Shown here piece after piece: positions 17,001 through 36,800 of a DNA stretch of 64,000 nt; position 1 is the stretch's first letter; each line of letters begins with the position of its first letter. The position numbers were made by a program, and so were the translations under genes. Source of the stretch: Bilabrum cf. latius (taxonomy: Eukaryota). The notes below the pieces were generated by a model. The model did not search any database. It saw only the letters and a program-made list of their open reading frames with translations, and had not been told where the DNA came from. Location of the stretch: contig OZ237763.1 of assembly GCA_965178125.1 (NCBI GenBank), forward strand, positions 310,001-374,000, read 5' to 3'.

Positions 17001-18034
17001 TGAAGGGAAAAGGCAGTCGCAGTGACGCAGCCGCAGAGGTGCTAGATTGGATGCGGAGCTGCGTGGTGCCCTTTTCAGTCGACGATTTCCAGACTGCAAT
17101 CGAATACGGGTGCGCGGGCGGCGACACTGCAAGCAGCAAGGCGGCGGCTTTGATGTTCAAGGACGCGAACATCAGCGCCAACAGGTGGCAAGTCCTGCTG
17201 GCTGAGCCATTAACCGCCTCACAGTCGCCAAAAGCCGCAGCAAAGACCAAGTTCAAGCCGAAGTCAGGGAGGCGAGGACGGCGTGGGAAGAGGAGGGGCA
17301 CCGCATCTGTGGCTCGTGCTGCTTCCGCTTCTAGTGGCGCCGGAAGTGGCACGAAGTCGTACATTAAGCCGTCCAGCAGGGAGCTGCCCATCGACATTCG
17401 GGCCACGTTCACGCCCCCAACTGTCCGCTGCTCGCATTTCGCAGACCGGGCCTTCCAGAAGGGGAATTCGCTGCGTGCTCGTTTGGAGTCCGTGCGTAAG
17501 CAGGCCAAATCTTCGCTGATGGGATAGCTTGCCGATTGTCTTGTGCATCGCACTGCAGGTATGCACCCCTATAAACTGGCTGCTGGCAAAGAGATTACCC
17601 AGGACCAGCCTGACGAGGCGGAGGATCCCGTTCAATGCGATGACACGGAGGCTGACTTCTCCCCGACAACCGACGTGAGTCCATTCGAACTTGACATGCA
17701 CGGGCCCGACGAATTCCTCGTGTTCCCGAGCGACGAGGAGGACGTGTGGCAGTGCTCCTTCAACACGGAGGGCACCAAGTCGAGGCCAAACGAACTGCAT
17801 CGCGCGCTCACGCCCGAACGGCAGAAAGACAGGGGCATTGGAACGCAGCCCATGTTCCGCGAGATGAGCGGCTGGCGGAGGTTCGACGGGACACCGGTCG
17901 AATTGGGCAGCAGGAAACCGAAGCAGGTCGATGGCCTGTAGGCGCTGGCGGCCGCGATGGCAGAAGTGAAAGGTGTGGCGCCTGGGTCGATGTCGACAGT
18001 AGATGCTCTATTCAGCTTGATGGATGGCTTCTGA
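14032..18034 (+). CDS. Ankyrin-repeat protein (~858 aa), 9 exons: 14032-14142, 14263-14364, 14471-14599, 14785-14925, 15183-15290, 15659-15772, 15932-16033, 16172-16270, 16364-18034
   Basis: Successive exons translate as ankyrin units: SGGTLLHLAAK, KGRTPIHFAAS, HGRTPLHYAAA, RGYTASAVAAI, EGGTMLQFAAQ, HGSTPLHAACM, HGVLALHMGV, NGEFPMDEA. All are flanked by phase-0 GT..AG introns. The last exon joins ORFs 16154, 16784 and 17543 (same frame) through TAG at 16718, 17525 and 17939, and ends at TGA 18032-18034. Confidence 0.8.
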
Positions 18035-18246
18035 TGTGAAGCTTCCTGTTGAGACCCGTTGCGACCATTGCTGGACGCGGAGTCGCTGTGCGCAATCCGA
18101 TGACCCATGGGATGTTAACGGATTCGAGTGCATGGGCTGGGGTCGGATTTGGGTGCGATTTGCATTTAGCCGGAATTAACTTTTAAATCTAGAAGAATCT
18201 GACTGGAGTATGAGCTGTGCTACTATTCCTAGCGACAATCGATGGA

Positions 18247-21200
18247 TCACCGTGCACGGTCAACAAACTCCCAGACCGCATCCCAACCTTCCGCTTGCTC
18301 TTTACGCTGCTGCCGATGCCGCAGAGCTGGGAGGGGCTATTCTCCGAATGCCTCAACAGAAGTAGAACCCCCACTATCCGGCATTGGCGGCGACAACATC
18401 GAGTCGTCTACTCCTGCTCCCAAACCCAATCCACTCGGGTCCATACCTGCTCCAATCCCGCTCGAGGCAGGAGCGGCGACGCCCAGTAGAGTCGCGGCGT
18501 GCCTGCAAGCTCGCCTGAGCACGGCTTCCAGCTGCTCCTTATACCTCATCTCTGTGTAGTCCACGGTGCCCTCCAGCCCTCGAATACAACGCACAAGCCA
18601 CACACCGATGGCATCCACCGGATCATCGCCGATCGCACCGTCTGCAGCTTGAAAAGGCGAAGCTCCGCCAGCTCTTTTCGGCGGGGAACTCGATCCAGAT
18701 CCTGCATGGGACAACCACGCCCCTATGCTGCGCATTAGTCCGGCGGACTGCACCCCAAGGACGGTGTGACACGCTGCGATGCGCACTTTGAAATAAGGCG
18801 CCTGAGCCGCTGCCTCGAGGCTGGCTTTCATCGCCAGTCCCAGCCACCTTGGTGCGATCGGTGCTGGCGAGGGCACTGGCCCACGCGGTGCGATACCCTC
18901 AATCGCCACACCAAGCGCGTAGCACGCGTTCCAGCGCGTCTTGGCAGAGTGCTGGTCGTCTGTGAGACACCTGGCCAGAGTCATGAAGGCCTCCGGGATG
19001 TGCTTGGGCACCGTGACGCACGCCGTCCTGGACGAGCCCGGATCGCTTGCACGTCTGCTCACTGGAGACCCGTGGCCCGCTGAAGCAGCCGGCATCCCGG
19101 GGGCAGCTTTGCCCGTGTCTTGTATGCTGGCATCGGCACCCATGCTAGCGGTGCTATGGATAGAGAGCGCAACGCGAGCCGCAGCACCCAGCGCCCTCGT
19201 TGCAGCACTCACCACCTTATCTTTCTCTCCGCATGCCACTAAAAGAGCCTCCACGCACCGGTTCACCATGTCTGAACCGATAACCGTGCCGATGCTGCCG
19301 TACCAGTCAGGTGATTGCCCCTCGGCTAGTTTGGCAGATGAGGCATCGTGGCTGTCTTTTTCGTCTCCCGTGGCTCCGCTAGAGGCACTTGTGCCTGCCC
19401 CTGACGTGCTGAAATCGTTTGCTCCCTTGTCCTCTGCCCCTTCGTTGCGCGCAGTCGGCTCCAGCAGCACGCAGCCCAGCGCCCAGCTGGCTCTCACCCG
19501 GACCTGCACCCCTTTGTCAGTCAGGCCGTCCAGTGCGGCCTGCGCCACGGACCGAAGATCTCCCGGTCTAGTGCCTGATTTGCGGGAGCAGAGAGTTCCA
19601 AGCAAATGAAACCCAGCCGCTCGTGCGGCAGATACGGCGTCATCAACGGCGGCCAGCCCCAGCGCGATCGGCGCGGATGGCTGGGTCTGCGTGTCACCAG
19701 CAGACGACTTGCTGGACTTCGCAGCGTCTGTCTTGGGCACCCCAGCAGCCCGTTGCTACGAATGCTGCTCCCAGTCTTCCGGTAGCACGTGTGCAAGGCA
19801 CTACAGCGCACACGTGCGTACTCCCGCGGCTGGGTCCTCGCACGCCTGAGGCAACAAGGAGCCGAGAGCCTGCGCCATGGTCACAGGGCCGGGGGACGCC
19901 TCCGAAGCTGGATCGGTATCACCTGCACCGACAGATGCGCCACCAGCTGATCCAGCTGATGTGCGTCTGCTGTCTCCCCCGTCTGTAGTCTTGCCTTCCT
20001 GCAGCACGGGCAAGGCAGCACCGAGCGCCTCCGTCACCGCAGAGTCAACTCGCTTGGCCGCTGCCAGGTTAGGCTGCAGCTCCAGCCTCCGTCTAGCAGC
20101 CGCTCTTGCCCTCAGTACCTCTTCAAGGACCCTCAGAGCAGAAGATCGAATGCCAGCGCTAGAATCCTCCAAAGCAGTGCGGATGATGCTACTGATGTCG
20201 CGGGGCCAACGGCGCTTGGACGCGAATGCCGCCGTGTGGTGCCGGGCCACTCGGGCCAGCAGCGTAAGACCTTCCTATCGTATCTGCTGCGCCGCATCCG
20301 GCGCAGAAACGCAGCGAATCACGGCATCGAGTACCTTTTCTCCCACTCTTGCCGCATCCCCCACCACGCCCATCGGCTGCCCGGCCGCAGGCTATAGCAG
20401 CACCCGTCGAACCTCTGATGGCCCCGCCCTCGCGCCCACAAAGCAGGCCATGCACTGCAGTGCAGCGACACGGACCACGGGCGCATCGCTGCGGATGTGC
20501 CTGAGGATGCAAGGCGCCATGGACCGGAGGAGGGAGCCCCCCTCCAGCAGTCGATCGTACGGAGTTGCTGCGATCAGCGCACTTGCCGATCGAAGCACCA
20601 GCTGCACCTCTGTGGAAGATGGTGAACCGGGTGCTTGCACAGACGTAGACGAGCCGCTGCCTCTGTCTGCCTTGCTACTACTGCCTGACCTGCCCGGCCA
20701 CCTGCCGCCCACACCGCGGCGCTTGCCCGACTCTGCGCCTGACGCTGAGGACCAGCCGCCTCCTGCTGCAATGCCAGCTGACGTGAAGCCGTCAGCACCG
20801 CTCCCACCTCTATCGGAAGCAGAGCCTGCATCCGAGCCCACCCTTGAGCCACGCCTGCGGCCTCGCAAGCTATCACCCGGCTGCGCCGAGGAAGCCTCAA
20901 GCGCAGCTACGTTGAGAGGACCGCGCAGGAGAAGGAAGCATACACCCCTGTGCAGCTCCACCACGATGGCCTTGGTTCGGTCTGACGCAGTTGTCACACC
21001 AGCGAGCGCAGCTCTCCGGGCACGAGCCCGTGCGATGGCGCTGCGCCCCTTGGGACCAGCAGTGGACAAGCCCACACCGTCGCCGTCGTCATCCTCCACG
21101 TCCATGCCGAACGACTTTGGGATCAGCTGCATTGTGACTTCCAGGGGCAGGCGATCGGCCTTCGTGTGACGAGTGAGATGCGATGCGGTAGAGTCGGCAG

Positions 21201-24143
21201 CCGTCTTCGGTTCATCAGGCTGCTTGGTTTCGTTGTTCCCCCGTGCTGCTGCCTTTGCTTTGGCAGCGTCGCTCTCGGCTTTGCGTGCAGCAGCGCGCTT
21301 GCGCCTAGCGCCGATGGGCAGGATCGCAATCCATTTGGCAAGAGGGGCGCCGTCCAGGATGGCCGCCACGGCATCTGCGGCCGCCTCCCGCACCTTAGGG
21401 CTGGGGTCGTAGAGGATAACGGTCACGAGGCTGGGCGCGAAGGGCTTGTCATCGAGGGAGTCCACCTCGGGCAAGAAGAGCGCCCATCGGCCCTGTACGA
21501 GCTTCGGGCTGGCCCGTGAGACGGCTGCAATGCACTGCAGTGCGCTGCACCGGACGCGTACAGCGAGGTGCATGTGGCGAGTCGCGAGCGTTTCTACCAA
21601 TTGGGGCCTTGTGCCGGCTGCGCTGGCAATGCTGGGATCTTCACCAGCGCCGCTGGTAGTGGCCTTGCTTGCTGCATGTATACACGACGTTGATTCATTG
21701 TCGGAGCCTGGCAGGGCAGGAGGCTAGATCTGACGCTTCGGGGAGGCGCTTCCGTCCGGTGATGCCACGAATCCGACGGCTGGATGCAACTGCCTAGCTC
21801 GGTGCTAGTCCCGCCGTCCCGACTGCTCCTTGCCGAGGAGTGCGCTGGCGAGGTCTGTCTTGGACGGACCCGAGGACAGCTTGAAGGTCTGCCTGTTGCC
21901 CTGCTTCTGGCAAGGCATCAGACTGTCGCCGTCAGTCCCAGGGGTCGAGCTCTTCGCCGCCATGACAGTAGCGTCCCGTGCTGGCTTGGTGCCGCTATCC
22001 GTTCGAGGTGGCGTGAGGATGCGAGCCCTAGCCCTGCTGCGATCCAGCACCGGAGATGCGGCCGGAGAGCCGCCCGCGGCTGCTTCACTATCGATGAGAT
22101 GCGAGGGCTCGCGGTCTCCGCCCCCGCGTCTTCGCGGCGGCGTCAACGGGGAGTCTGCGTCGTTGCTCAGCGGCCTCCCTGCCCCCATGTCTCGAGCAAA
22201 ACGTCCAATTGTACCCTAGCTTCCATCCTTCGTTGCATTCTTGCGCACACTTGCTGGTGATGGCTGCTGCATCGCCCCGGCTCCAACGATAGCTTCGGGA
22301 TGCGCCGCCCCCGCCCCCTGTGCCGGCTTCCTCCTCCCGTTGAATCCCATGCACTGGTGCAAATACCGCAGTAGCTCGTCCAAATTCACGCGATACTGCG
22401 CTACACACCTGGGAAGGACACTCTAGAGAGCACGCAGGGAGCTACTCAGAAGCCGGGCGCTGTCTGCCAGCGGGATGAGATTGGAGCCTTCGAGGTAGGC
22501 ACAGAGTCTAAGGGACCGAAAAAGAGGACCGTACAAGAGCGTGTGAGCCCGAGCCGAAATGGCTCGCTGACCCCCCTTCATCACCACGTTGCTGGCCGCC
22601 ATCTGAGCCCAGTGCCTACCCACGCACAGCTACCTCCACACGTGCTCCTTTTGCATCGATTCTACTCCTCGTACCCTACTGGCTACCGCGCTGCTGCTGG
22701 CACTGCGCCCTGCCCGCGTCGCCGTCGCCGCGAACTCTCCTACTTGCTGTCCTACATTGATAGGCACCGCCAGAAGCTCTTCTAGTACCTGGATGATGAC
22801 TTGGTGAAGCTCTCCGCACCTATCTGCATTCTCGTGCAGCACTAGAGAGAGGGCCTGGCTGGACGCCACGGCAGACGCTGCGTGCTTGGTCGCGAGTGCG
22901 ACCGGGTCCCCATCCTGGGGCGGGCTGCCTGCGCTGCCTGATGCTGCGGTGGCCACTATTGATTGCTTTGGGGATGATGCATCGCTTCCTATCGTTTTAT
23001 CCTCGGCGCGGCCATGACCAGACCTCGTTCCAGGTGCACTATCGCTTGCTCCCGCACCAGACCGATGAGCCCCGCTCCTGTCCTCTCGCTGTCCTTTAAG
23101 CCGCAGCCCAAGGAACTCTCTGCATGCTCTCACGCTGTGCATAGCAGCAGCAAGAAGCACTCTCACCACGGGGCCGGTATCACCAGCTGACATCTCGATC
23201 GGCTGCGCCCGTGCTGTCCTGCACATGACCCCGGCGAACTGCTGGAGGCACTGCTCCTGCTGCCTGTCAAGCTGTGGCCCTCTGAGGGCACTGGCAAGTG
23301 CGGCTGCTTCGCGCTTCGATGCTTCTGCGGCTGTCTCTGCTGTGGAAACGATTGATTCAGATGGGCCAGGCATGCCTCCCCGCCCCGATGCAGCGGTGGA
23401 TGCAGCTGCTGCTCGCTTGGACGTTGATGCGGTGGACCAGAGACTGGATGACACGGGCCCATGATCCGCTCCAAATGCACCGATGCTTGCCTGCTTGCCC
23501 CATCCAGTGACGGCCGCTGTGGCATTCGCGGCCGAGACTGCCATCCTGCCTACGTCCTCGACCGATATGTCCCGACTGGGGAGACGGACCGAGCCAGCGG
23601 CTTCCAGCTGCTTGAGCAGGGCCGAAGGATCGCTCGCCGGAGATGTCCTGCTATCTGAGTGTTCATCCAGATGACTGCCGGCGATTCGCCCAAACTCCGA
23701 GACGATCTGTCGCCATACACGTCGCGGTCCGGCAAGCAGGCGGTCCACTCTCCGGTCGCTTAGGCCGCCTGACGGCTGAGCTTGCGTCCCCCCTGCAGGT
23801 GGACGCGACCTCGATCCCGGTGGTACATACTTCGAGTGGACTTTTGGTTGATACTCTTTTGTTTTCTTGCCATCCTGTCGGCTTTTGCGGCTCCTCAAGC
23901 GAGGGGTGCGCCTGGACTGTGAGAATGCAGGCGATGCTGCCAACGGAGATTGTGGCGTACCTTGGTCAGGCGACGTACTGCGTTGAAAGTAGATACTTTT
24001 GATACATTCCAAAAGTAGCAATTGGGACAAAATACTTCGAAGAAAGACCATGAGTAATAGTATAGGCAGTCGACTGGTTCAAAAGACAGCCTTCTCTCAC
24101 CTAGCTGGAGCAGCTCCTGCCTGAGCCCTGCTGCGAGATCCAT
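18247..24143 (-). CDS. HEATR6: HEAT repeat-containing protein 6 homolog (HEATR6/DUF4042), ~1,900 aa; 5' exon structure uncertain
   Basis: Fragments 22630, 22423, 21805, 20392, 19801 and 18337 share one frame, joined by 10 TAGs and ending at TGA 18247-18249. Motifs VRCSALQCI...WALFLPE...SLVTVILYDPSPKVREAA, ATPYDRL, KTRWNACYALG and YFKVRIAA match HEATR6. The likely start ATG at 24143 is followed by a GTGAGA donor at 24100. A possible 17-nt micro-exon lies at 23977-23961, with the main exon from about 23916. Confidence 0.82.
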
Positions 24144-24325
24144 TCTGACCGAACCGCGGAGACCTATCTCTCCATGACATACAGGAGTGCCGCCAATTCA
24201 GCTGAATGAAGAGTTTGCTGCCGTTTCGATCGGAGCCACAATTTCGTTCCTGTGAGGCATCCAGAGCCGTTTGGGAGCAAGAGTCATTCTTGGCAGTCTG
24301 CACGCGGACTGTTCAAGATATTACA
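24144..24325. promoter_or_regulatory. Probable compact bidirectional promoter between divergent HEATR6 and NPHP4
   Basis: Only about 180 bp separate the two predicted head-to-head start codons (24143 minus, 24326 plus). No motif was identified, so the call rests on position alone. Confidence 0.45.
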
Positions 24326-27300
24326 ATGTCGGATCCTTCTAGTCGTAGACGATCATCTTAGGAAGCAGGGCCTCAGGGTGGTGGAAGCGTTCGAAGGGTG
24401 CAAGCTCAGATTGCAGCCTTCTTGAGGCGATAGCATCTGTATAACCAGATCCCTCATCCTTACCCAGAAAGCCTCAAGTCTTAGAATAGCCCACGTAGAG
24501 GTAAGCAATATGAATTGTGCTTGTTTTGGTCGTGGCTACTAAGAGCTATCGGATTCTCAAGTGTTGCGACCACTGTAGTTGCACTATCATCCCTCCTCAC
24601 GCAGCTTTTGTGCTGTACTTGGCCGGGAGCACTGTTCTAGTGCCGAGAGCATTATCTAGCACAAGCCCGGCAACGCAGCTCAGGCTGCGCTACCGAATTC
24701 ACCTGTTCGACAAGGCCACGGGTGTGTTTTTTGGCAGGACCTTTGTGACTTCGCGTGGGCAACTGCTCACGGCGAGTCGCCGTGGAAATGGCCCAGCTTC
24801 AAGCCAGGCCGATGTCATGCTATACGATGCCTAGGGCCCCGGAGAGCTCGCGTACGTGCATACTAGGGCAAATTCAGACGACATCATCGCCGCGGTGGAG
24901 GCCACAGTGGCCGTGTGCTCCAGGCGGCCTGTCGACCCAACGGCAGCGCTCCGGAATCATCAGCGGGAGCTGGAGGCATCTGCACCAAGCGAATCGCCAT
25001 ATGAAGAGGCGATCCAGAAAGCGGCGGCGGCCAGAGTTGCCCCGTCCACGTGGCATGACGGCGGGCTGGTCACGCTGCACGAAGTCTGTGAGCAAGCGGT
25101 CTGCATCTGCAGTCGTGTCATAGCCACAGCTTGCCTTCACAGCCGCGCGTATTGTGCCCCTTCAATAGCTAGCAACATCTACTTCAAGCCTTGTCGTTTT
25201 CTCCTGCTTGCACCGCAGCTGTTGGCTGGGCCCCACTGACGATGTTCAGTCCAAGCCGTACGGCCTCTTTGGCTGACGCCGCCAGCGTTACGACCCTGAC
25301 AGGAGAGGGCGCTCCCAAGCGAATATCGGTGCCTTTGCTCCAGGGAACACCGAGGGCACTGGTGGCCATGCATTCGTCCAACAGGCTGCACACACTGTAC
25401 GGTGCCAGAGCGCCCCCGAGCGATTCGGCCATCGTAAAGGCACAAACGGGCAGACAGGCAGGCGGCCAGCAGAGGCAGCAGCTGATGAACGAAGAACTCG
25501 CCCCGCACGTCCTGGCGCACAAACCTCCTTCGACTTTGCAAGGCACCAAGCTGCAGTACGTGCTGCTCAAGCACCCATCAGCCGCCCCCGCGCTGTCCAA
25601 CGTCGCTCCTCCGGATACCTTCATCGGGCCGTTCGACGTCCTGCCCGGCCTGGTGCCCGTGCGTGTCCCTCGGTCACTCGCCGCGGGAGCCGGCACGCTC
25701 GTCACAGGGAGAGCGGTCTCAACCGCGCCTCCAGCCGTGGCATGTCTCCTGCCAGAGGTCTCTTCCTTCTCCTCCGACTCGTCGCACGCAGCTGCGCCCG
25801 CACCAGCCATCATTGCGATGCCCAAGCTAGCCCCCAGACTCTGCCTCTCGGCGCAGCGAATCGCCCTGATGCTGCCCGCAGGATTCTCCAAGAGGGTGCT
25901 GGAGGCCTGCGTGCGAAGGCTGGAGGTGGACATGTGCTACAAGCGATCGGAGACTGACTTAGGCGAGGGTGTGTCCAGAGATCTCCTCAGTCGGTCCAGG
26001 CTGCAGGGCGCAGAGCTGCACCTGCAGCTGCACTCTGGAGTGCACGTCATGGAGGAGGCCACAGTGCCGCTCAAGATGGGCAGTGGAGGTGCCGGTAACC
26101 TTGGCGGTGGCATGGGCGGCATGCTGGCCATCGAGGACCCGGCAGCGGCGGCGAGAGCAGCGGAGGCCGCCATTCCCGGCCCCGGTGCAATGCGAGGCAG
26201 CACGATGCTTCTGTCCGACAGGGCAGTCCTGTTCCGCTCCTATGCGCCTCATCCCGCGGTGGCACTCGTGGCCAGCGTTCGCTTCATCGTGGAGCTCCCC
26301 ATGCTTCAGCCTGGCGAGGACGGTTCCCATCAAAGGGATGACTCGGGCATGCAGCACATGCAATAGCAGTAGCAGCAGCAGCAGGGAGGCGCGGTCGCGT
26401 CGGCCACCGGGATCATGCAGCCAGAGCAGCCGGCCCCCATGAGCGGGCACGTCGTGCTCGGCCGGTTTGCACAGCGCAAGATCATGGTGGGTAAACAGGT
26501 GTACCCCCTCTTCGATGGGCAGTCTATCCATCTCTCCAACGCGTCGCCAATGAGCAGGAGCGCAAGGCAAGATCCGTCCGATGGACGTCCTGATTCCTCT
26601 AGAGAAACGGCAGGCCCGTACACCAGAAGGCCTTTGGAGCTGCCTCTAAGAGCCCCCTATGCCTCCAATGCAATAGTGCGCGGCCTGTGGCTGGAGCGCG
26701 GCGGCGGGGACGCTCTGTTGCAGGAGCAGCCTTAGGTGTACATCTACGGACCCGAATCGCCTGTGGTCGGAATGAAGCTGGCACTGCACGGCAGCGAGGC
26801 GGCCAAAGCGGCGCCCAAAGCACAGCAGGTGGGTGAGGGGGCCGGCACCATGACCGTTGTGGCCCCGCAGCCGTACGCACCCGAAGACCCCGCCGCAGCA
26901 GATCGTGCCAGGCGAGAGGCTGCGGAGCGCAGGCAGCGGCAGGACGACCTAGACAGGAGGGCGAGGGATCTGGAGGAGCAGCGCAGGAGGGACGAGGAGA
27001 AGAGGAGGGAGTTCGAGGACGATCGCAGGCGGCGGGATCGTGACGACAACGACCGTGACCGTGACGACATCCGTGACAGAGACCGCGACTACGGCAGGGA
27101 CAGGGGTGATGACGGTGACGGTGATCTGGAAGACGAGCGACGGAGGCGACGCGAGGCGGAAGAGGAAGCGGCCGAGCAGCGCAGGAGGGCGGCAAGGCAT
27201 GAGGAGGAGCTCAGGAGGCTAAGGGAGAAGAGGGAGCGGGAGAGGGAGGAGTGGGAGAGGGAGCGCGACGATGAGATTAGGAGACTCAGGGACAAGATGA

Positions 27301-30300
27301 GATCGTCCGGTCGGAGGTATGATGGCGATGACGATGATGATGTCAGGGGTCGCAAGCCCTGGGACTATGGGTAGAAGGGCAGGCCAGCCTCTCCCAACAG
27401 CACGCTGGATTCTGCGTCCGACGTCGGCATGGGCGCGGATGATCGCCTTAGGAACCGCGGGCTGGACGACTCTGGCATCACTGACCCTGACCTCATCGAC
27501 CAGGGCCCGAGGCTGGCAGACCGGCAATCCATGCCGCTCATCGTGACCCGCACCTCAAGGGCCGTGCCCCTCCCCGGACACGCCGACCCGGCCTACCTCA
27601 CCGCTCCCATCATGCCTCGCACTGGCAACACCTTCAAGAGCCAGTACGGGGGCATGCGGCCGATCCCCTACTCGCCCAGCAGGTAGGCCATGGAGGTCGA
27701 CGTGCCCGGTGACGGTGTGCTTACACACGACACGCTGCTGCGGGCCGCCGCTGCCGCCTTTCCACCCAGAGGGATGAGCCTGCCTCGAGCAGCGCGCACG
27801 CTGCTGAACAAGTGCGGATACGCGATGGTGATGGATACTGGGGCTGGGCTGTACGGTGACGAGGGCCCAGGAAGGGAGGGCGGCATGGGAGAGTCAAAGG
27901 GTCCCGAGGAAGGCACCACGCGGGACTTCGGGGTGGGCGACCCTTACGGCTCCGGGTCGAGGGTGCCCGAGCGTGCGATTGAGATCTCTCTGGAAGAGAG
28001 CGACCCGTTGCCCAGGCACAGGATTACCATCCAGCTGGCAGGACTCGTGCTGCCGTCCTTCCTCGGCGATGGCGGCGAGACTGAGGAGGTAGAGGAGTGG
28101 CACGATGGCGAGGATTAGGATGGCAGCGACTGGGAGGATGGCGATGGCGATGACGAGTACGACCGAAAGGGACGGAGGAGCGGCAGCAGGCGACGGCGCC
28201 GCCGCAGGAACGGGGGCAAGGGCGGTGGTAGCGATCGTGAATGGGACGATGACGAGGAGGATGAGGGGGGCGAGGGCGGGTCGCGATCCGGTGGAAGCAG
28301 GAGGGATCGCAAGCGAAGGAGTCGCCGGCGGAGAAGCGGCAGTCGAAGCCGCAGCAGGAGCAGAAGCAGCAGCCGCAGTGATCGAGACCGGCCTCGCCGC
28401 CACCGAAGGGGCTCCAGGAGCGGCAGCGATCGGGACTGGAGCGACGATGACGTTGACCGAAAGGGCGGTAGCCGCAGAGGCCGCAGGCCAAGGCGGGCCA
28501 AGCACGGCTCCACGCGTCAAGTGGCCGTGCGTCGGAAGCGGCGCCGCCAGAGGCAGACCAAGGCAGTATACGCCACGTTCCAGTTCTTCGCGTGCCCGCC
28601 CACTCGGACGGAGCCACTGGTCTGTCTGCCCGCAGACCAGGTGGACGGCAGTACCGGCGCGGATGCTCGCAGGTCAACGGATTTCTCTGGTGGCAGGCGC
28701 CGGGACGACAGGCACCACGACCGGAGAGGGCCAGCTGTCGGTAGGTCCGTTGACTTCCGTGGGACAGGTGGGTTTGCTGCTGCATAGGGCGGGCCTCTGT
28801 ACGGTGTGGGCCAGACTGCTCCAATGCGACCGGCCGAGCGAGGCGCCGGCGGGAGCGTGGGTTATCACGTGCTAGGCAGGCCGGCGGGCTCCCGCGACGC
28901 AAGGGGTGCCCGGGGTCAGGCGGCGGGAGCCGCCGCTCGCCTGCAGGGCCTGTCAAGCGCGGGCAGGAGGGCCTATAGGGACGGAGACAGGCGTAGATGG
29001 GAGCACTCGGGGATCGGAGGGGGTGCTACTGGCCCGTTTGCTGGGCCGCACCCTGGTGAATCAGCGGTCATTGACCCGCAGAGGTACGCGGCCGATGGGC
29101 CCAGGCAGTTCGCTCGGTACCTTGCCGGCTCTGTGGCTCAGGTGGAGCTGTGGGACGCATCGACGCACCTGCCTTTGGGTAGCGCGTTCATCGACTGCAG
29201 CTTGCTTGCGAGGCAGCAGCGCAGGAGGGTAGTGGCGTGCCGCGAGTTCCCAATCTTCTCCACGGCTGCCGCAGCGTTTGCTGCCGCTGGTTCCGCAACC
29301 GCACCCATTGAGTCGGTCATCGCCGGTGGAGAGACGCTGCCTGTCGCGCTCGGCGGCGGTGGAATCGTCGGGTCGCTGCAGGTGCTGCTTTGCAACGAGG
29401 GTCTGCCTCCCGTTGCCAGGCCGGAGAGGGGTGCATCCTCGGCTCTGCGTGCCACGGCTGGCATCGCTGGCACTGGTGTGTCCATCCTCGGGGGTGGCGG
29501 AGGGGCATCCTTTGGCGCCCCACTTGCCGTGTCCGGTCCCAGCCGCACGATGAATCCATCTGCAGCAACGCTGGCTGCATCCCGTGCCGCCAGTGCAAGA
29601 CCAGGAGACCTCCTGCAGCGCGCCCTCGCAGCGACCCGTGCGGCTGGTACGGGGGACCACAAGGCCATGCGGCTGTCGAGGACGAGAACCGTGGCGCGCC
29701 GCATCGGCAGCCGAAAGCAGCCGTCGATGGGCGGCGCAGCAGGAGTTCCCGCCAGCATTGCCATGCAGGGCGGGGCGCTTGCGTCGGGCACGGGCATGGA
29801 TGAGACGGAGCGAGAGTTCGTGGCCCTGCTTCGGGCCAGGAGCGCGGGCCACGGGAGGTCCAGGGGAGGGCGAGGCGGGGGCGAGCCTGAGTGGTGGCAC
29901 GAGTACGCTCTGACCTACGACGAGTCGAGGGCGTTGATGAGGTACCTTGATCCGAAGCACGACGACCAGGTCGCTGTGGATCGGCTCGCCGAAGCTGTGT
30001 TTGGGGCGAGCGGGGCAGAAGTGGGGGCGGCTATGGAGCAGACCCTGAGGCATCAGGACGGGACGCAGGCTGTGGGTGCGCTGCCCTCTGCTTCCATGGA
30101 ACCGCGGGAGGCAGGCGAGGTCGATGAGGCCGTGGCAGATGCCATTTTGGATTTCAGCGGCGGGTACGATGATGTGGGTGCAGGAGATATCCGGCCTGCG
30201 TCGTCTGGCGCAGGTGACGACGGTGATGAGGGCGAGTCATCACCGAGAAAACCACAGGGCATGTACGCTCCCTTCGAGGCGGCAGCTGCCTACGCATCCA

Positions 30301-33300
30301 GGAAGCGGAACGCGAGGCACCACGCGCAGGAAGATGGCGGGACGTGGGCGCCGTCAAGGGATGACCGGTTTGCCCACCACCTGAACGAAGTGCCCAGGCG
30401 GGAGCTCCGCACGGCCGGAATCGAACCCGCGAACGAGCCCTCGCCAATGGAAGTGGGTGCCGCGTTCCTCGCCGATGAGGCCGAAGCAGACTTGAAGGAT
30501 GGCAGGATGACAGTGGGTCGATTCATCCACACTCTTCGCACGAAATGCGCTGCGGCGCTGACGCCCGCCGAGGCTCGCGGGCTGATCGCGAGGCACTGCG
30601 GCATTGCGTCGCGAGAGTCCTCGACCAAGTCCATCCGGGACTACTATCTCACGCCCATCCTGTACAGAGAGGCCATCGAATCGATCCTGCAGGCCGCCAA
30701 GGACGTGCAGCGAGTGAGAGAGAGGCGCATGGACAGAGGTGAGGAGGGAGATGACGAGGGGCGCCGTGGCCGTGGCCGCAAACGAGGCGAGGGGCGGGAG
30801 GCGCGCATGTCTGTCAATGCGGTCATTGCGTGCGGGAAGATCCGCAGGCTGGTGAGAGCCAACCTCGAGGCTCTCCCCGCTGGTGACTCGGACAAAGCGC
30901 TGAAAGCCGCCAAACGACGCGGTGAAGTAGAGGCGCGCAGTAAGTCCGATCGAGACGAGGAGGACGAGGAGCGAGATGAACAGGATAAAGGGAAGAGCAA
31001 GCGTTCCCGACGGTCAGACGGAGGATCTTCCAGCGGAAGCGATTCAGACCGTCGCAAACCACGTGGCAAATCAGGCATTGGGACCCAGGACTCAGTCGAT
31101 GCGGAAGCACTCACTCCGTTTCCCACACGATCCGAACGAGGGCGGCTTCTGGGCCTACTGTAGCAAGCCAGGCCCGACCGCAGGGGCATGCTCTCGTGGA
31201 AAGACGTGCAGGACCAGCTAGAGGGCGGCCTGGGGCTGCGCTTCCCCCTGCGGCGAGACGAGGAGTCCTTCTTGCCCGAGCTGGCCAGCAGGCAGCTGCA
31301 GCGGGCTCGGGCGGCGGATGAGGCCATGCGGGGGCGCATGCGGGGCGGCGAGACCGAGGATAGTCCCCTGGTGGCGCGGGACGGCGATGGCAAGGAGGTG
31401 GTGGTGCGGTCCCGGGGGCCCGTGCCCCGAGGATCGCCCGAGTGGGAGGCCACGGAAGCAGGCAGGCTGGCGGCAGTGTCAGCGTTCCGCGAGGGCAGGA
31501 AGAAGGAGGCATTCGCGAGGCTGCTGGCGGACTCCATCGCGCAGCAGGCCACGCTGCGTCCGTCCTTCGGGCGGGTGTGCCTGCTGGAGATCGAGGTGGC
31601 CAATCCGTACCCACACGACGAGCGCTTCGTGGTGGACGTGCTGGATCCAGCCATGTCAGGCACGCGCCAGTCCTCTCGCAGCCGGCGAGGCCCCCGCAGC
31701 ACGGCCCCAGAGCTGCGGCTGGTGACTGACCCAGAGGAGAAGGCGTACCTGTGGGCCCGGCTGCCGGTGCTGCGGGCGGTGCCGCGGGGCGCTGTGGGGC
31801 CTGGGCTGGAGGAAGGCATGCGCATACCTGCGGCTGCTGGCGGTGGTACTTTCAATGGTGGCATGGGCACTGGCGATGGCTGGACGGTTGGATCCATGAC
31901 GCGGGGCGTGCGTGCCAGTGGGGTGTCCGGTGTGGAGGCGCGACACGGTCCCGGTGCGGCGGTGCCCCCTGGCGTGGTCCCTGGGTCTGGCACTAGCCCA
32001 GGTACCAGTGACCCTGCCTTCACGCCTGACGGGCAGGTGCTGCTGGCCCCGGGCGAGACCATGGTGCTGCCCATGGTGTACCTGTCCTACCGTGACGGGA
32101 CTGTGCGCGGGGGCTCCTCCGTGTACGAGGCCGGCGGTGTGGATGACCGAGACGGGGCTTACAGCTCGGACGAGGAGGGCGGGCACGAGGATGCGGGCCA
32201 TGGAATGGCTGGACGTGGTGCGGGACCAGGTGCCGAGCTGCGGGTCAGGTCCAGCACCAGCCGAGCCATCCGGGCCATGGACCGGGACCAGCGATCGGGC
32301 AAGGCGTCCAGATCGCGCGCGGAGCAGCGGCGGCGTGGCGGCGGCATCGCGCGCCGCACCATCGACGTGCGAGTCATGTCGGTGACGCACGGGCGGTGCG
32401 TGTGCCAGACTGGGGTCCGCATCAAGCCCAGGCCGTTCGCGGTGCATCGCGTGATGCGATACTTTCACCCGTCGGAGCAGATGCTGCGGGTGTTCCTGCC
32501 CGTGCCTGGGAATGCGGGTGCTTAGGGCGAGTGGTAGGACGGCATGGGGGACAGCAGGGGCGCGCTGCGGCAGGCCGCGCTGGATCGGGACGCGATGAGG
32601 ATGGGGCCCGGGGGCATGGTGGGTCTGATGGGTATGGGCGGGGGCCTGGATGTCTGCTTCGCGCACTGCCCTCACCCGGCCGTGTCGGCCGAGGTGGCGC
32701 CATGGACGGGCGATACAGATGGTCAGTCGGGATGGACTCGAGGCGAGGATCATCGTCACCATGGCGCACCATCAGGGCCAGGACCAGCCCCTGCCGTGTC
32801 GGAGCTGCGCCTGCGCACGCGCGCGCCCGCCTTCCCCGAGGCCATGCAGGCCCACGTGGTGCTGTACAGCGACCCCTACTGCGCCCACGTGCGCGAGGTC
32901 TGGCGCGTGGTGGTGCATGGGGTGCAGCACCTGCACCTGGCCGCGCCCGTGGGAGGGTCCAGTCGAGCCGAGATCGTGGTGCGCGGGGACCGCATCAGTC
33001 GCCGGTGCGTGGTGCAGGCTGACGATCCCAGCGAGGTGGGCTTCGACGTGCCTGCCGCCCGGCCCTTTGGACTCGTGTCGGGCGCGTACAACCGCATCCG
33101 CACGAGCTTCGCGCCGCTGCAGCCGGGCCGCCGGACGGCCTTGGTGTCCGTGGCGGACGCGGACACGGCAGAGCTCATGGGGCTGTGGAGGCTCACGCTG
33201 CAGGCGGACGCGCCGGCCGTGGGCCAGACGTACACGGTGCCGGTGCTGGTGGGGCAGACGGTGGGCAAGCGCGTGACGTACACCAACACGTGGCCCACGG

Positions 33301-33656
33301 AGCGCAGGTTCAAGGTGCGGTCCAGCCGGCCTGACGTGGTGGACGTGCGGCCCGACTCGGTGGAGCTGGCCCTGCAGCCGGGCGAGACTGCCTTCATCCG
33401 CGTATCGGTGAAGTCGTACGGGGGCCCTAGCGCGGGCGATCCCAGCCCGAGCGCTCTGATGGCGGCGTCTGGGCTGTCCGGGAGGGAGCGTGTGGAGCTG
33501 GCCCGCAGCCTCGTGTCGAGCCTGCCGCCCGAGTTGGCTGTGGGCGAGGATGAGCTGCGGCTGGTGGGTGCGCGGGAAGCGCTGGTGTTTGTGGATGACG
33601 CGGAGGGCGGAGGGAACGTGGAGGTGCTGGGGGTACGGGTGGTGTACTGCGAGTGA
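24326..33656 (+). CDS. NPHP4: Nephrocystin-4 (ciliary transition-zone protein), ~3,030 aa, exons 24326-24500, 24605-25087, 25219-33656
   Basis: Conserved NPHP4 blocks occur in order: YRIHLFDKATGVFFGRTF, LLQGTPRAL, KAVYATFQFFACPPTRTEPL, FARYLA...VELWDASTHLPLGSA...LARQ, EIEVANPY, KRVTYTNTWPTERRFKVRSSRPDVV, EALVFVDDAEGGGNVEVLGVRVVY. Introns 24501-24604 and 25088-25218 are GT-AG and frame-consistent. There are 14 in-frame TAGs, and the stop codon is TGA at 33654-33656. Confidence 0.9.
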
Positions 33657-33862
33657 GCTTGGCCCAATATTTGTGTGTGTACCTCTCGTTCTGGACGTTC
33701 CAGATGGTTAGTCAGAGCATATAGCTGAACAACAAGTACGGTGACACTATCTCAAGACCCCTTCATCTTGTCCTTGCCCACCACCGGCCACACCAACTGT
33801 AGCGGATTCCATTGTACAGGTACTTTGAGGAGGCTCAGGCCCTCTTTTAAGTACAAAATGAT

Positions 33863-36800
33863 TCATGAGGAGGACACAGCAAGTCGATCGCACAGAGCCA
33901 TCATAGTCTTGACCACTGAAAGAGAATCAGGGTGCTGCTTGCCCAGCGCGGTCTCCCGGATCTGCATGCATTGCCCGTACAGCTCCAGGGCCTCGCCGTA
34001 CTGGCCCTGGTTATAGTAACACCCAGCCATGCTATACAGGGTATCCCCGTACACAGGATGCTGCTTGCCCAGCGCGGTCTCCCGGATCTGCATGCATTGC
34101 CCGTACAGCTCCAGGGCCTCGCCGTACTGGCCCTGGTTATAGTAACACCCAGCCATGCTATACAGGGTATCCCCGTACACAGGATGCTGCTTGCCCAGCG
34201 CGGTCTCCCGGATCTGCCTGCATTGCCCGTACAGCTCCAGGGCCTCGCCATACTGGCCCTGGGCATGTAGGCATGACGCCATACCGTGCAGCGTGGCGGC
34301 ATACTCGCGATGCTGCTTGCCCAGCGCGGTCTCCCGGATCTGCATGCATTGCCCGTACAGCTCCAGGGCCTCGCCGTACTGGCCCTGGTTATAGTAACAC
34401 CCAGCCATGCTATACAGGGTATCCCCGTACACAGGATGCTGCTTGCCCAGCGCGGTCTCCCGGATCTGCCTGCATTGCCCGTACAGCTCCAGGGCCTCGC
34501 CATACTGGCCCTGGGCATGTAGGCATGACGCCATACCGTGCAGCGTGGCGGCATACTCGCGATGCTGCTTGCCCAGCGCGGTCTCCCGGATCTGCATGCA
34601 TTGCCCGTACAGCTCCAGGGCCTCGCCGTACTGTTTCTGGTTAGTAACACCCAGCCATGCTATACAGGGTATCCCCGTACACAGGATGCTGCTTGCCCAG
34701 CGCGGTCTCCCGGATCTGCCTGCATTGTCCGTACAGCTCCAGGGCCTCGCCATACTGGCCCTGGTTATAGTAACACCCAGCCATGCTATACAGGGTATCC
34801 CCGTACACAGGATGCTGCTTGCCCAGCGCGGTCTCCCGGATCTGCCTGCATTGCCCGTACAGCTCCAGGGCCTCGCCGTACTTGCCCTGGTTATAGTAAC
34901 ACCCAGCCATGCTATACAGGGTATCCCCGTACACAGGATGCTGCTTGCCCAGCGCGGTCTCCCGGATCCGCATGCATTGTCCGTACAGCTCCAGGGCCTC
35001 GCCGTACTGTTTCTGGTTATAGTAACACCCAGCCATGCTATACAGGGTATCCCCGTACACAGGATGCTGCTTGCCCAGCGCGGTCTCCCGGATCTGCTTG
35101 CATTGCCCGTACAGTCCCAGGGCCTCGCTGTACCGTGCCAGTGATCGTAAACATCCAGCCACGTTGCACAGGGTAGTGGCGTAAACCGGATGCTGCTTGC
35201 CCAGCGCATTCGCTAGAATCTGCCTGCATTGCTCGAACAGCTCCATGGCCATATCAGTCTTGCCTTGCTCCGATAGACATAAGGCCATGTTGTGCAGTGC
35301 GACTGCGTAGTCCGGATGCTGCTTGCCTAGCGCGATCTCCCGGATCTGCTTGCATTGCCCGTACAGTCCCAGGGCCTCGCTGTACCGTGCCAGTGATCGT
35401 AAACATCCAGCCACGTTGCACAGGGTAGTGGCGTAGTCCGGATGCTGCTTGCCCAGCGCATTCGCTAGAATCTGCCTGCATTGCTCGGACAGCTCCAGGG
35501 CCTCGCCATACTAGCCCTACGAGTGAAGGCACCCCGCCATGTTGCCAATTGTGGCGGCATAGTCCGGATGCTGCTTGCCCAGCGCGGTCTTCTCGATACG
35601 CCTGCATTGCTCGTACAGCTCCATGGCCTAGTCGTAAAGAGCCTAGAATTGAAGACAGACGGCTAATCGTTTCAGGGGGGGGGCGAAGCCCGTTTGCCCT
35701 GCTTTTGAACGACGCCCAGCAAGTAAGGCCACAGCAAATTGGGTAGATAAAGAAGACGTTGCTCTATAGATTTGCTGTAGCCCCGCAGATCGTCCTGCAA
35801 GCTAGTGCAAAGCGTCCACAGCCTTGAGTTGCCCTGCGCCATGAACTCTTTGCATGTGTCCTAAACTCCGCACTAACGAATGAGCGGCTCTGTCTGGACT
35901 CATCGCATGTATACCACCAAGTCTTGCTGCTTCAGTACCAGCACAATTAGCAGCAGAAAGTTTCAGATGGCAATCCAATTCCAGTGAACACTGTCTGTAT
36001 TGGGCTAAATCGACGACCTTCGACGCCCCAGTTGTCGAATACAAGCATGCTAGTCGCTACAGTCGGTTCGCCCAAGACCGAGTCGAGCTGATGAGGACAG
36101 CCTGATCAGTTCGATCAGCCCTCTCTCCACCAACTTGCCGAGGCATATCGCTTTCATACAGTGTGGCACCAATAACGTACGACAACTCACGTTCGTCATC
36201 TAGCTGATCCAATAGCAGACGCACATGTCTGAGACCCAGCCCAAACGAGTGCATCAGCCGCTTCAGCACTCGACGATGCACCACTGAATTCGCCTACACA
36301 TCCACGTCCTCAGTCAAACACACCTCGACCGCCAGTTCGTCTCGATACTGACCCAAAACTCCCGAGCGTGCCTATGCGTAAAGTTTCCCGATGTCTTTCC
36401 TCGCTTTTGACATAGCCCCTGCATCCCCTGCCATGATCAGGTCAGGGCTCAGGCCCTCGAATGCATCTTCACCTTCCAGCTCTCGCATCCGATGCGCGGC
36501 CTCGGGAGGCAGCAGGCACGTCATGGCCGCAGTGCCAGAGTAGTACCACTGTGGACATGCCACGATTGCCACCAAGACCACCTGGCCGCTGCTATCCACC
36601 GCGTTGGCACTGATACAGCCTGTATCCACATGGCGCTGCATCCTGTCTGTCTGGAAAGTGGCAGTGGCGATCATATGAGTTGAGCAACACCATCGCTGTA
36701 GACTAGCCTGCACCAGTGCAAAGGACGCCCTACGCTCGTCGGCTATCATGCAGAACGAATCAAGCTGCCCAAAGTGCACCGCCGACATGTGGTCAGACTC

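What the first reader, a model, noticed from the sequence alone, without database searches (positions are those of the whole stretch)
26358..26387. TAG codons embedded in a poly-glutamine tract identify the amino acid
In NPHP4 the frame reads ATG CAA TAG CAG TAG CAG CAG CAG CAG GGA. Two TAGs alternate with CAA/CAG inside a homopolymeric Gln run, as a synonymous Gln codon would. This evidence needs no external database.
Basis: seen in the sequence. Interest (0 to 1): 0.85.

Follow-up and report, generated by a model that had tools for sequence, protein, structure and literature searches.

The report
TAG read as glutamine codon
In this GC-rich eukaryote the usual stop codon TAG is used inside genes as a codon for glutamine, a rare type of genetic-code change that is already known from a few other protists.

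Summary
ATG CAA TAG CAG TAG CAG CAG CAG CAG GGA lies at 26358-26387 (+), in frame in a 3031-codon gene that named homologs identify as nephrocystin-4.

TAG is a sense codon across the window. Seven giant frames hold 109 TAG, 0 TAA and 0 TGA in 17,801 codons, and all 7 complete gene ends are TGA. Contigs of three other runs carry GT..AG-spliced forms of the gene. One contig runs unbroken from 25219 to 33598 across the tract.

The amino acid is glutamine. An environmental relative (L001, 68.6% identical) uses the same code: 9 TAG, 0 TAA, 0 TGA in 1372 codons. At 17 TAG sites aligned between the window and relatives, the partner is Gln in 9; no other residue occurs more than once.

The polyQ argument alone is thin, because the window has only two polyQ-like runs. 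Its conclusion is nevertheless right.

The code type (UAG=Gln, UAA not sense) is known from Iotanema spirale and two ciliates. This lineage has no named close relative and is GC-rich and TGA-terminating. I rate it a new member of a known kind. The scan had noted TAG-to-Gln before only on a crAss-like phage.

The parts
26358..26387 (+). The finding: ATG CAA TAG CAG TAG (CAG)4 GGA, read as M Q Q Q Q Q Q Q Q G. It lies in a variable, low-complexity linker of NPHP4.
   Evidence: No homolog has residues in these two alignment columns (0 of 62).
26364..26366 (+). First in-frame TAG of the tract.
   Evidence: A 97%-identical protein fragment from another assembly (P0160) ends exactly before this codon.
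26370..26372 (+). Second in-frame TAG of the tract.
24326..24500 (+). NPHP4 exon 1, coding from ATG 24326. In-frame TAGs at 24359, 24431 and 24482.
   Evidence: Joints, sequence, spliced ORF.
24501..24604 (+). Intron 1, 104 nt, GT..AG.
   Evidence: joint in contigs of X5 and X6..
24605..25087 (+). NPHP4 exon 2. In-frame TAG at 24832.
25088..25218 (+). Intron 2, 131 nt, GT..AG. The TAG at 25170 lies in this intron and is not coding.
   Evidence: joint in contigs of X5 and X7..
25219..33656 (+). NPHP4 exon 3. Ten in-frame TAGs at 26364, 26370, 26733, 27372, 27684, 28116, 28785, 31161, 32523 and 32535. Terminator TGA at 33654-33656.
   Evidence: The X5 contig covers 25219-33598 with 0 listed differences and 0 gaps.
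27372..27374 (+). Window TAG aligned with Gln in a relative's fragment, P0161 (PWDYG[x]KGRPA against PWDYN[Q]KGRPA).
31161..31163 (+). Window TAG aligned with CAG in relative L001 (LLGLL[x]Q against LLGLL[Q]Q).
28581..28583 (+). Window CAG aligned with a TAG of relative L001 (VYATF[Q]FFACP). This column is Gln in 41 of 56 distant homologs.
29379..29381 (+). Window CAG aligned with a TAG of L001.
   Evidence: Distant homologs at this column: Q 22, H 18 of 54.
30066..30068 (+). Window CAG aligned with a TAG of L001. All 6 flanking residues are identical.
32406..32408 (+). Window CAG aligned with a TAG of L001.
18247..24193 (-). HEATR6-like gene (DUF4042, HEAT repeats) with 10 in-frame TAGs, a 123-nt GT..AG intron at 23978-24100 and a TGA end.
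39752..56785 (-). 5677-codon frame with FG-GAP and REJ domains (polycystin-1-like). It has 47 in-frame TAGs and a TGA end. The TAGs at 44431, 45142 and 45061 align with Gln in relatives' fragments.
1..11436 (-). 3812-codon frame with IPT/TIG and FG-GAP domains and 27 in-frame TAGs. Its 3' end lies outside the window.
33863..38747 (-). TPR gene of the NPHP3 / kinesin-light-chain type with in-frame TAGs. Two of them sit at the Q position of the repeat's Q-G-K/Q-Y motif. There is a frameshift at about 34641-34656. The gene ends at TGA 33863.
16145..18034 (+). 629-codon frame with 3 in-frame TAGs and a TGA end.
58730..63286 (+). 1518-codon frame with 3 in-frame TAGs and a TGA end.

Best explanation
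The window comes from a GC-rich (about 60%), intron-poor eukaryote whose nuclear code reads TAG/UAG as glutamine. TGA terminates genes, and TAA is not used as a sense codon. The two TAGs in the NPHP4 polyQ tract are ordinary Gln codons, one C-to-T transition away from CAG, so the tract encodes eight consecutive Gln. Shown here: TAG sits in frame in long, conserved genes; a spliced contig spans the tract; and TAG interchanges with CAG/Gln between relatives. Inferred from what is established for other UAG=Gln lineages (PMC5304391, section 9, read): decoding is by a tRNA-Gln with anticodon CUA, which pairs with UAG but not UAA, together with an eRF1 that no longer recognises UAG. Neither molecule could be examined here.
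For: (1) TAG is a sense codon. Seven stop-to-stop frames of 629 to 5677 codons hold 109 TAG, 0 TAA and 0 TGA in 17,801 codons. Six of the seven keep their bounds when TAA is also read through: five are flanked by TGA on both sides and one runs off the window. They still hold 0 TAA.
(2) Transcripts. Contigs of X5, X6 and X7, which come from two studies other than the probable source, carry three GT..AG joints that the source contig X1 lacks. One X5 contig covers 24301-24498 / 24603-25087 / 25219-33598 with 0 listed differences. It therefore carries the in-frame TAGs of NPHP4. A second contig carries the HEATR6-like gene with its 10 TAGs. The only in-frame ATG upstream of the conserved N-terminus is at 24326, so translation must pass three TAGs in exon 1.
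(3) A relative shares the code. L001 (4117 nt, GC 0.625) is open over 1372 codons with 9 TAG, 0 TAA and 0 TGA. It is 68.6% identical to the window over 1349 aligned codons.
(4) Identity of the residue. There are 17 aligned TAG sites: 11 against L001, 1 against P0161, 1 against P0162 and 4 against P0164. The partner is Gln in 9; V, G, R, N, S, E, D and P occur once each. All 5 Gln partners read at the DNA level are CAG. Of 13 sites where at least 4 of the 6 flanking residues are identical, 9 are Gln. The chance of 9 or more Gln in 17 at the background Gln frequency of 3.4% is 1e-9. Summed BLOSUM62 scores are Q 43, E 20, K 6. Window Gln is matched by Gln in L001 at 23 of 40 sites, and at 27 of 40 if TAG counts as Gln, which equals the overall identity.
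(5) Distant homologs. Among 62 long NPHP4 homologs, the best-conserved column holding a TAG (in L001) is Gln in 41 of 56.
(6) Inside the window. Gln is the only residue clearly enriched near TAG. At +/-1 codon it is 21 of 218 neighbours against a 3.4% background. Within +/-3 codons the z-score is 3.6. TAG occupies the Q position of the TPR motif Q-G-K/Q-Y in two repeats.
(7) TAG never ends a gene: 7 of 7 complete gene ends are TGA.
Against: Eight of the 17 aligned TAG sites are not Gln in the partner. That is expected at 57-69% conservation, but the sample is small and comes from only two genes.
Some columns of distant homologs favour other residues: R in 19 of 28 at window residue 135, and E in 34 of 53 at L001 residue 657.
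Alignment of paralogous repeats inside the window gave a mixed picture: G 19, Q 16 and L 14 of 159 partner residues.
There is no tRNA in the window, no eRF1, no whole genome and no peptide evidence.
The read-laying tool skipped the repeat at 26353-26392. The span and length of the contig across the tract are shown, but the letters of these two TAGs in that contig were probably not compared.
The type of runs X5-X7 is not on record. X5 is flagged 'probably DNA', so reading the joints as mRNA splicing is an inference from their GT..AG ends and from contig ends that fall at gene bounds.
TAA was never seen acting as a terminator (0 of 7 ends).
Confidence: 0.93

Rival explanations
1. TAG is a sense codon but encodes another amino acid. 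Glu is the next best candidate. Leu and Tyr are possible by analogy with other reassigned UAG codes.
For: One of the 17 aligned sites has Glu as partner. One TPR-repeat TAG aligns with Glu in paralogs. One distant-homolog column is Glu in 34 of 53. Tyr is mildly enriched near TAG (z = 2.3). UAG=Leu and UAG=Glu codes exist (PMC5304391 and PMC11687900 abstracts; PMC10553269 seen only in search listings).
Against: Gln is the partner at 9 of 17 sites and every other residue at no more than 1. Summed BLOSUM62 scores are Q 43, E 20, L -38 and Y -27. If TAG were Glu with about 50% conservation, 1 or fewer Glu in 17 has probability 1.4e-4.
Confidence: 0.03
2. TAG is ambiguous. It is Gln inside genes but also terminates translation near some mRNA ends, as stop codons do in the context-dependent codes of Condylostoma, Parduczia and karyorelict ciliates.
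For: Only 7 gene ends could be inspected. Such codes exist (PMC4967479 and bioRxiv 10.1101/2022.04.12.488043, both seen only in search listings).
Against: None of the 7 complete gene ends is TAG; all are TGA. In the known ambiguous codes the reassigned codon is itself a common terminator.
Confidence: 0.05
3. There is no dedicated suppressor tRNA. UAG is read by near-cognate tRNA-Gln(CUG) because eRF1 has lost UAG recognition. The meaning is the same but the mechanism differs.
For: No tRNA gene could be examined. The Gln outcome fits near-cognate decoding equally well.
Against: One mRNA holds 47 TAGs and NPHP4 holds 14, which needs near-complete decoding at each site. TAG makes up about 15% of Gln codons: 109 against 472 CAG and 137 CAA. 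Other UAG=Gln lineages carry tRNA-Gln(CUA) (PMC5304391, section 9).
Confidence: 0.08
4. The TAGs are not translated. The candidates are introns, RNA editing of UAG to CAG, pseudogenes or assembly errors.
For: The letters of the tract itself were masked in the read-laying output. One real frameshift exists in the neighbouring TPR gene.
Against: A spliced contig spans 25219-33598 with no gap and no listed difference, so outside the masked 40 nt there is no editing or splicing at the TAGs. The frame stays conserved downstream of every TAG, at 68.6% identity over 1349 codons. A relative carries its own TAGs at other positions. There are 109 TAGs but no TAA or TGA in 17,801 codons.
Confidence: 0.01

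Closest known systems
Nuclear code of Iotanema spirale (Metamonada: Fornicata), with UAG = Gln and UAA and UGA as stops. This is the pattern of NCBI table 15 (PMC5304391; abstract and sections 7 and 9 read).
   Same: UAG alone is reassigned, and to Gln. UAA and UGA are absent from coding frames. UAG is never a terminator. The share of UAG sites matched by Gln in homologs is of the same order as for canonical Gln codons.
   Different: In Iotanema UAA is the main terminator: 104 UAA against 15 UGA in 126 genes. Here 7 of 7 ends are TGA and TAA was never seen terminating. This genome is about 60% GC. The NPHP4 tree places the window with an unnamed environmental sequence. No fornicate was in that tree, so the relationship to Iotanema was not tested directly.
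The phyllopharyngean ciliates Hartmannula sinica and Trochilia petrani, with UAG = Gln (PMC11687900; abstract read).
   Same: UAG alone is reassigned to Gln, and UAA is not a sense codon.
   Different: In those ciliates UAA is described as the firmly preferred stop. The window shows GC-rich DNA with genes of up to 17 kb and spliceosomal introns on a long contig. My statement that this is unlike a ciliate macronuclear genome rests on recall, not on a test.
UAR = Gln codes (NCBI table 6: many ciliates, hexamitin diplomonads, some ulvophytes, Amoeboaphelidium), and the expansion of Q-rich motifs by reassigned stops in ciliates (PMC10942620; seen only in search listings).
   Different: TAA is not a sense codon here: 0 TAA against 109 TAG. 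About 32 would be expected if TAA:TAG followed CAA:CAG.
TAG = Gln recoding in crAss-like and Lak phages, called 'genetic code 15' (PMC9523058, abstract start in search listings; scan note e1-1067872).
   Same: The codon and the amino acid are the same.
   Different: Those are phage genomes using a phage-borne suppressor tRNA in bacteria. This is a eukaryotic nuclear locus with spliceosomal introns and cilium genes.
Nephrocystin-4 (NPHP4), a protein of the ciliary transition zone.
   Same: The C-terminal 1051 aa match proteins named nephrocystin-4 at E = 3e-24 (Quaeritorhiza), 5e-23 (Crassostrea cluster), 4e-20 (Gigantopelta) and 1e-15 (Ciona).
   Different: At 3031 aa it is about twice the length of the named animal proteins of 1393-1458 aa. 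It carries long charged and low-complexity inserts, including the polyQ tract. No Pfam model matched it.

Membership tests
Nuclear genetic code with UAG = Gln and UAA/UGA = stop (Iotanema type, NCBI table 15 pattern) | In-frame UAG in conserved protein-coding genes, present in the mature mRNA | tested here: met
   109 TAG in 17,801 codons of 7 frames. GT..AG-spliced contigs carry the TAG-bearing exons with no listed difference. Caveat: the type of those runs is not on record, and the 40-nt tract was masked.
Nuclear genetic code with UAG = Gln and UAA/UGA = stop (Iotanema type, NCBI table 15 pattern) | UAG positions correspond to Gln in homologs | tested here: met
   The partner is Gln at 9 of 17 aligned sites, and at 9 of 13 sites with conserved flanks. 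No other residue occurs more than once. The best-conserved distant column is Gln in 41 of 56.
Nuclear genetic code with UAG = Gln and UAA/UGA = stop (Iotanema type, NCBI table 15 pattern) | UAA and UGA are not used as sense codons | tested here: met
   0 TAA and 0 TGA in 17,801 codons. Six of the seven frames do not lengthen when TAA is read through. L001 has 0 TAA and 0 TGA in 1372 codons.
Nuclear genetic code with UAG = Gln and UAA/UGA = stop (Iotanema type, NCBI table 15 pattern) | UAG does not terminate genes | tested here: met
   None of 7 complete gene ends is TAG. The sample is small.
Nuclear genetic code with UAG = Gln and UAA/UGA = stop (Iotanema type, NCBI table 15 pattern) | UAA acts as a terminator | tested here: inconclusive
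   None of the 7 ends is TAA. The one frame that ends in TAA (34641) does so because of a 2-bp deletion in a repeat unit, and the gene continues to TGA 33863.
Nuclear genetic code with UAG = Gln and UAA/UGA = stop (Iotanema type, NCBI table 15 pattern) | A tRNA-Gln with anticodon CUA | not testable with these tools
   No tRNA in the window, no Rfam match and no whole genome held.
Nuclear genetic code with UAG = Gln and UAA/UGA = stop (Iotanema type, NCBI table 15 pattern) | eRF1 altered in its stop-codon recognition motifs | not testable with these tools
   eRF1 is not in the window and no genome is held.
UAR = Gln code (NCBI table 6) | TAA is also read as Gln | tested here: not met
   0 TAA against 109 TAG, while CAA:CAG is 137:472.
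Ambiguous stop/sense codes (Condylostoma, Parduczia, karyorelict ciliates) | The reassigned codon also serves as a terminator at gene ends | tested here: not met
   7 of 7 gene ends are TGA. The sample is small.
Nephrocystin-4 (NPHP4) | Significant sequence similarity to proteins named nephrocystin-4 | tested here: met
   404 hits at E<=1e-3. Named nephrocystin-4 from Quaeritorhiza, Crassostrea, Gigantopelta and Ciona are among them.
Nephrocystin-4 (NPHP4) | Match to a curated family model | tested here: not met
   No Pfam-A family at E<=0.01 for the whole protein or E<=1 for its parts. I do not know whether Pfam holds an NPHP4 model, so this is weak evidence.
Nephrocystin-4 (NPHP4) | Location and function at the ciliary transition zone | not testable with these tools
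   This needs cell biology.

The most novel reading that the evidence does not exclude
This is an independent, not yet described origin of the UAG-to-Gln nuclear code. It occurs in a GC-rich, deep-branching flagellate lineage, and at least one environmental relative shares the code. TGA is the working terminator and TAA may hardly be used at all. That would be a GC-driven route to stop-codon capture, unlike the UAA-terminating known cases.
Probability: 0.4. Interest if true: 0.75.

Novelty: new member of a known kind. Interest (0 to 1): 0.6.

Why it matters
Nuclear codes that change UAG while leaving UAA unchanged were long thought not to occur. The papers found here document them in only a few lineages: Iotanema, a sainouroid rhizarian and some phyllopharyngean ciliates. 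A further lineage, GC-rich and TGA-terminating, with a sequenced genome, apparent transcriptome data and an environmental relative sharing the code, would add an independent case. It could be used to ask how the translation machinery separates UAG from UAA, through tRNA-Gln(CUA), GlnRS recognition of the anticodon and the eRF1 motifs. It could also show whether base composition drives which stop codon is captured.

There is a practical consequence as well. Gene callers using the standard code cut this organism's proteins at every TAG. The database fragments P0006, P0007, P0009, P0160 and P0162 are such pieces. Its genes, and those of its metagenomic relatives, are therefore mis-annotated unless the table 15 pattern is used.

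Tried and rejected
- tRNA scan and Rfam at gathering thresholds: nothing in the window.
- Pfam on NPHP4, whole and in parts: no family.
- Alignment of paralogous repeats inside the window to read TAG partners. A whole-protein blastp gave only 4 pairs. A chunked blastp gave 159 partner residues at mostly variable positions: G 19, Q 16, L 14. This was too noisy to decide, apart from the TPR Q-G-K/Q-Y motif.
- PDB search of the TPR region: the printed alignments did not cover the repeats that hold TAG. It served only to show the Q-G-K/R-Y motif of kinesin light chains.
- HEATR6-like homolog search: 5 weak fish HEATR6 hits covering 6% of the query, none over a TAG.
- First metagenome scan with the NPHP4 exon-3 protein: the patterns came from low-complexity stretches. 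585 stretches matched and none was confirmed.
- The look-up of sequencing runs: no RNA holder listed. The type of runs X5-X7 is a guess by the tool.
- Earlier scan notes: none for this genome or sequence. Only a phage note was found by words.
- Literature searches for another non-ciliate UAG=Gln lineage or a stramenopile case found none beyond Iotanema, the rhizarian exLh and ciliates. Subscription journals and supplements were not searched.
- Taxonomic placement from one gene. A quick NPHP4 tree used 28 rows chosen by me from the 150 listed hits: the 12 with names plus 15 top unnamed ones. It puts the window with unnamed P0008, outside the clade that holds the two ochrophyte sequences and opposite Amorphea. 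This is too thin to name a group.
Full report
**Observation.** In this frame every stop triplet between 25173 and 33653 is TAG (10 of 10), and the frame closes at TGA 33654. It is the only run of five or more CAG/CAA/TAG triplets on either strand of the window.

**Gene structure and transcripts.** Contigs of four public runs were laid on 18200-34000.
- The probable source run X1 gives one unspliced contig across the whole stretch.
- An X5 contig of 9063 letters covers 24301-24498, 24603-25087 and 25219-33598. It skips 104 and 131 bases that begin GT and end AG.
- The first joint recurs in X6 and the second in X7, which belongs to another study.
- A second X5 contig covers the neighbouring gene on the minus strand. 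It skips 123 bases that read GT..AG on that strand.
- The X5 contigs end near gene bounds and leave the intergenic stretch 24194-24300 essentially uncovered.

I read these contigs as spliced transcripts. The type of the runs is not on record, and the tool flags X5 as probably DNA, so this is an inference. The intron ends were checked in the sequence: GT at 24501 and AG at 24604; GT at 25088 and AG at 25218.

The spliced frame runs from ATG 24326 to TGA 33654. It is 3031 codons long and holds 14 in-frame TAGs. No other in-frame ATG lies upstream of the conserved N-terminal region, so three TAGs in exon 1 must be read through. The TAG at 25170 lies in intron 2.

The contig crosses the polyQ tract without a gap, so the mRNA does not skip it. 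The tool skipped the repeat at 26353-26392 when it listed differences. The letters of those two TAGs in the contig were therefore probably not compared. A 97%-identical protein fragment from another assembly (P0160) ends exactly before the first TAG. A stop triplet therefore stands there in that assembly too.

**TAG is a sense codon throughout the window.**
- With TAG read through, seven frames of 629 to 5677 codons appear.
- Together they hold 109 TAG, 0 TAA and 0 TGA in 17,801 codons, beside 472 CAG and 137 CAA.
- These are stop-to-stop frames. A few TAGs near their 5' ends may lie upstream of the true start.
- Six of the seven frames keep the same bounds when TAA is also read through, and they still hold no TAA.
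- If TAA followed the CAA:CAG ratio, about 32 TAA would be expected.
- Pfam identifies several products: IPT/TIG with FG-GAP; DUF4042/HEAT (HEATR6-like); TPR_10, TPR_12 and TPR_NPHP3; FG-GAP with REJ; and a UQ_con E2 enzyme.

**Which amino acid: evidence inside the window.**
- Gln is the only residue clearly enriched next to TAG. It makes up 21 of 218 flanking residues against a 3.4% background.
- Within three codons of TAG, 40 Gln are observed against 22.9 +/- 4.7 in random draws. That count was reached in 1 of 2000 draws. Tyr is second, with z = 2.3.
- The coding frames hold only two runs of four or more Q or TAG. One of them is the finding. The polyQ argument on its own therefore rests on a single tract.
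- In the TPR gene, two TAGs sit at the Q position of the repeat motif that reads Q-G-K/Q-Y in the sister repeats and in kinesin light chains. Two other TAGs sit at K/R/Q and E positions.
- Alignments of the FG-GAP and TIG paralogs were too variable to help.

**Which amino acid: evidence from relatives.** An exhaustive HMMER search with the C-terminal 1051 aa, with X at TAG, found three short fragments at 61-82% identity: P0006, P0007 and P0009. They come from JGI, ENA and Logan assemblies. P0006 led to a 4117-nt metagenome contig, L001.

One frame of L001 is open over all 1372 codons, with 9 TAG, 0 TAA and 0 TGA. The relative therefore uses the same code. A codon alignment with the window gives 1349 aligned codons at 68.6% identity.
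- Of the 9 TAGs in L001, 4 face CAG in the window. The other five face GGC, CGG, AAC, TCG and GAG.
- Of the 2 aligned window TAGs, one faces CAG and one faces GTA.
- Both sites where all six flanking residues are identical are Gln.

Two further searches for short proteins added fragments from other relatives.

| Window TAG | Relative fragment | Partner residue | Note |
|---|---|---|---|
| 27372 | P0161 | Q | |
| 44431 | P0162 | Q | |
| 45142 | P0164 | Q | |
| 45061 | P0164 | Q | |
| 44959 | P0164 | D | poorly aligned |
| 44773 | P0164 | P | poorly aligned |

In all there are 17 aligned TAG sites. Gln is the partner in 9, and every other residue occurs at most once. The chance of 9 or more Gln at the background frequency is 1e-9. 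Summed BLOSUM62 scores are Q 43, E 20 and K 6.

Window Gln is conserved as Gln in L001 at 23 of 40 sites. The figure is 27 of 40 if the four TAG partners count as Gln, which matches the overall identity. Fragment ends agree with this picture: P0162 stops just before window TAG 44320, and P0006 and P0009 stop just before TAGs of L001.

**Distant homologs.** I aligned 62 long homologs, all those of 1300 aa or more among the 150 listed hits, with the window protein and the L001 translation.
- The best-conserved column holding a TAG is Gln in 41 of 56.
- A second such column is Q 22 and H 18 of 54.
- Most other TAG columns are variable or gapped.
- Two columns favour other residues: R in 19 of 28, and E in 34 of 53.

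**Stops.** All 7 complete gene ends are TGA. The one frame that ended in TAA (34641) does so because one TPR unit lacks two bases that six sister units have. The repeats continue in another frame to TGA 33863. TAA is therefore not a sense codon, but it was never seen terminating either.

**Gene identity.** Hits of the C-terminal search include proteins that their sources name nephrocystin-4, from Quaeritorhiza, Crassostrea, Gigantopelta and Ciona. The best named hits are 'EF-hand' or unnamed proteins of the ochrophytes Phaeothamnion and Phaeomonas. The polyQ tract lies in a lineage-specific low-complexity insert; no homolog has residues in those columns.

**Mechanism.** The meaning of the codon is shown; the machinery is inferred. 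UAA is not read as an amino acid, so the decoder should carry anticodon CUA. In other UAG=Gln lineages a tRNA-Gln(CUA) and altered eRF1 motifs are known or proposed (PMC5304391, section 9). Neither can be examined without the genome.

**Comparison and novelty.** The code type is known.
- Iotanema spirale: UAG=Gln with UAA as the main stop, 104 UAA against 15 UGA (PMC5304391, section 7).
- Hartmannula sinica and Trochilia petrani (PMC11687900, abstract).
- A sister lineage of Iotanema keeps the standard code (PMC9161772, passages read).

This locus differs from those cases in being about 60% GC and TGA-terminating. It also has no named close relative: a quick single-gene tree puts it with an unnamed environmental sequence, apart from the two ochrophytes and from Amorphea. 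Six full-text searches found no report of another such non-ciliate lineage. Supplements and subscription journals were not covered, and the source genome may be described elsewhere.

I rate it a new member of a known kind.

Noticed in passing
window 34641-34656 (-), with sister units at 35034, 34908, 34782, 34406, 34154 and 34028: One TPR repeat unit reads TGTTACTAACCAG where six sister units read TGTTACTATAACCAG. The 2-bp loss shifts the frame and creates the only TAA 'stop' in the window. The repeats continue in another frame to TGA 33863. This is either a real truncating mutation or an assembly slip in near-identical 126-nt repeats.
   Followed up: partly
window 1-11436, 25219-33656, 33863-38747 and 39752-56785: Four neighbouring giant genes all resemble cilium or ciliopathy proteins: an IPT/TIG plus FG-GAP protein, NPHP4, a protein with an NPHP3-type TPR domain (PF24885, 120.9 bits against a cut-off of 100), and an FG-GAP plus REJ polycystin-1-like protein. 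Whether this clustering is more than chance was not tested.
   Followed up: no
window 39752-56785 (-), protein residues about 1040-1510 and 1511-1980: A long internal tandem duplication that looks near-identical in the printed translation. TAGs sit at the same positions in both copies (residues 1315/1786 and 1360/1831), and the aligned stretches around them were 100% identical. The duplication is therefore recent and carried its TAG codons along.
   Followed up: partly
L001 1966-1971: The relative has two adjacent in-frame TAG codons (..SRK x x ARR..) where the window has CGG AAC.
   Followed up: no
window 12967-13491 (+) and 14000-16150 (+): A ubiquitin-conjugating E2 (UQ_con, E = 1e-36) with no TAG and a TGA end. 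Next to it are ankyrin-like ORF pieces in different frames, which suggests a gene with several introns in a stretch of lower GC (0.54).
   Followed up: no
window 18247-24193 (-): In the HEATR6-like protein one TAG sits in a HEAT-repeat motif that reads A-L-Q-C in two other repeats of the same protein (..CSALQCIAAV....VAALQCMACF....TCALxCLAHV..). This was seen by eye in the translation.
   Followed up: partly
P0008 (unnamed, 2057 aa, 39% identical): The nearest full-length NPHP4 homolog was predicted as one uninterrupted protein. Its organism either keeps the standard code or simply lacks TAG in this gene. That bears on how old the code change is.
   Followed up: no
window 28213-28739 and 33483-34000: Summed contig depth jumps about tenfold in the runs (for example 171.7 against about 17 in X5), with many loose ends rich in CAG/AGC. 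These low-complexity or repeated stretches are shared with other loci or transcripts.
   Followed up: no
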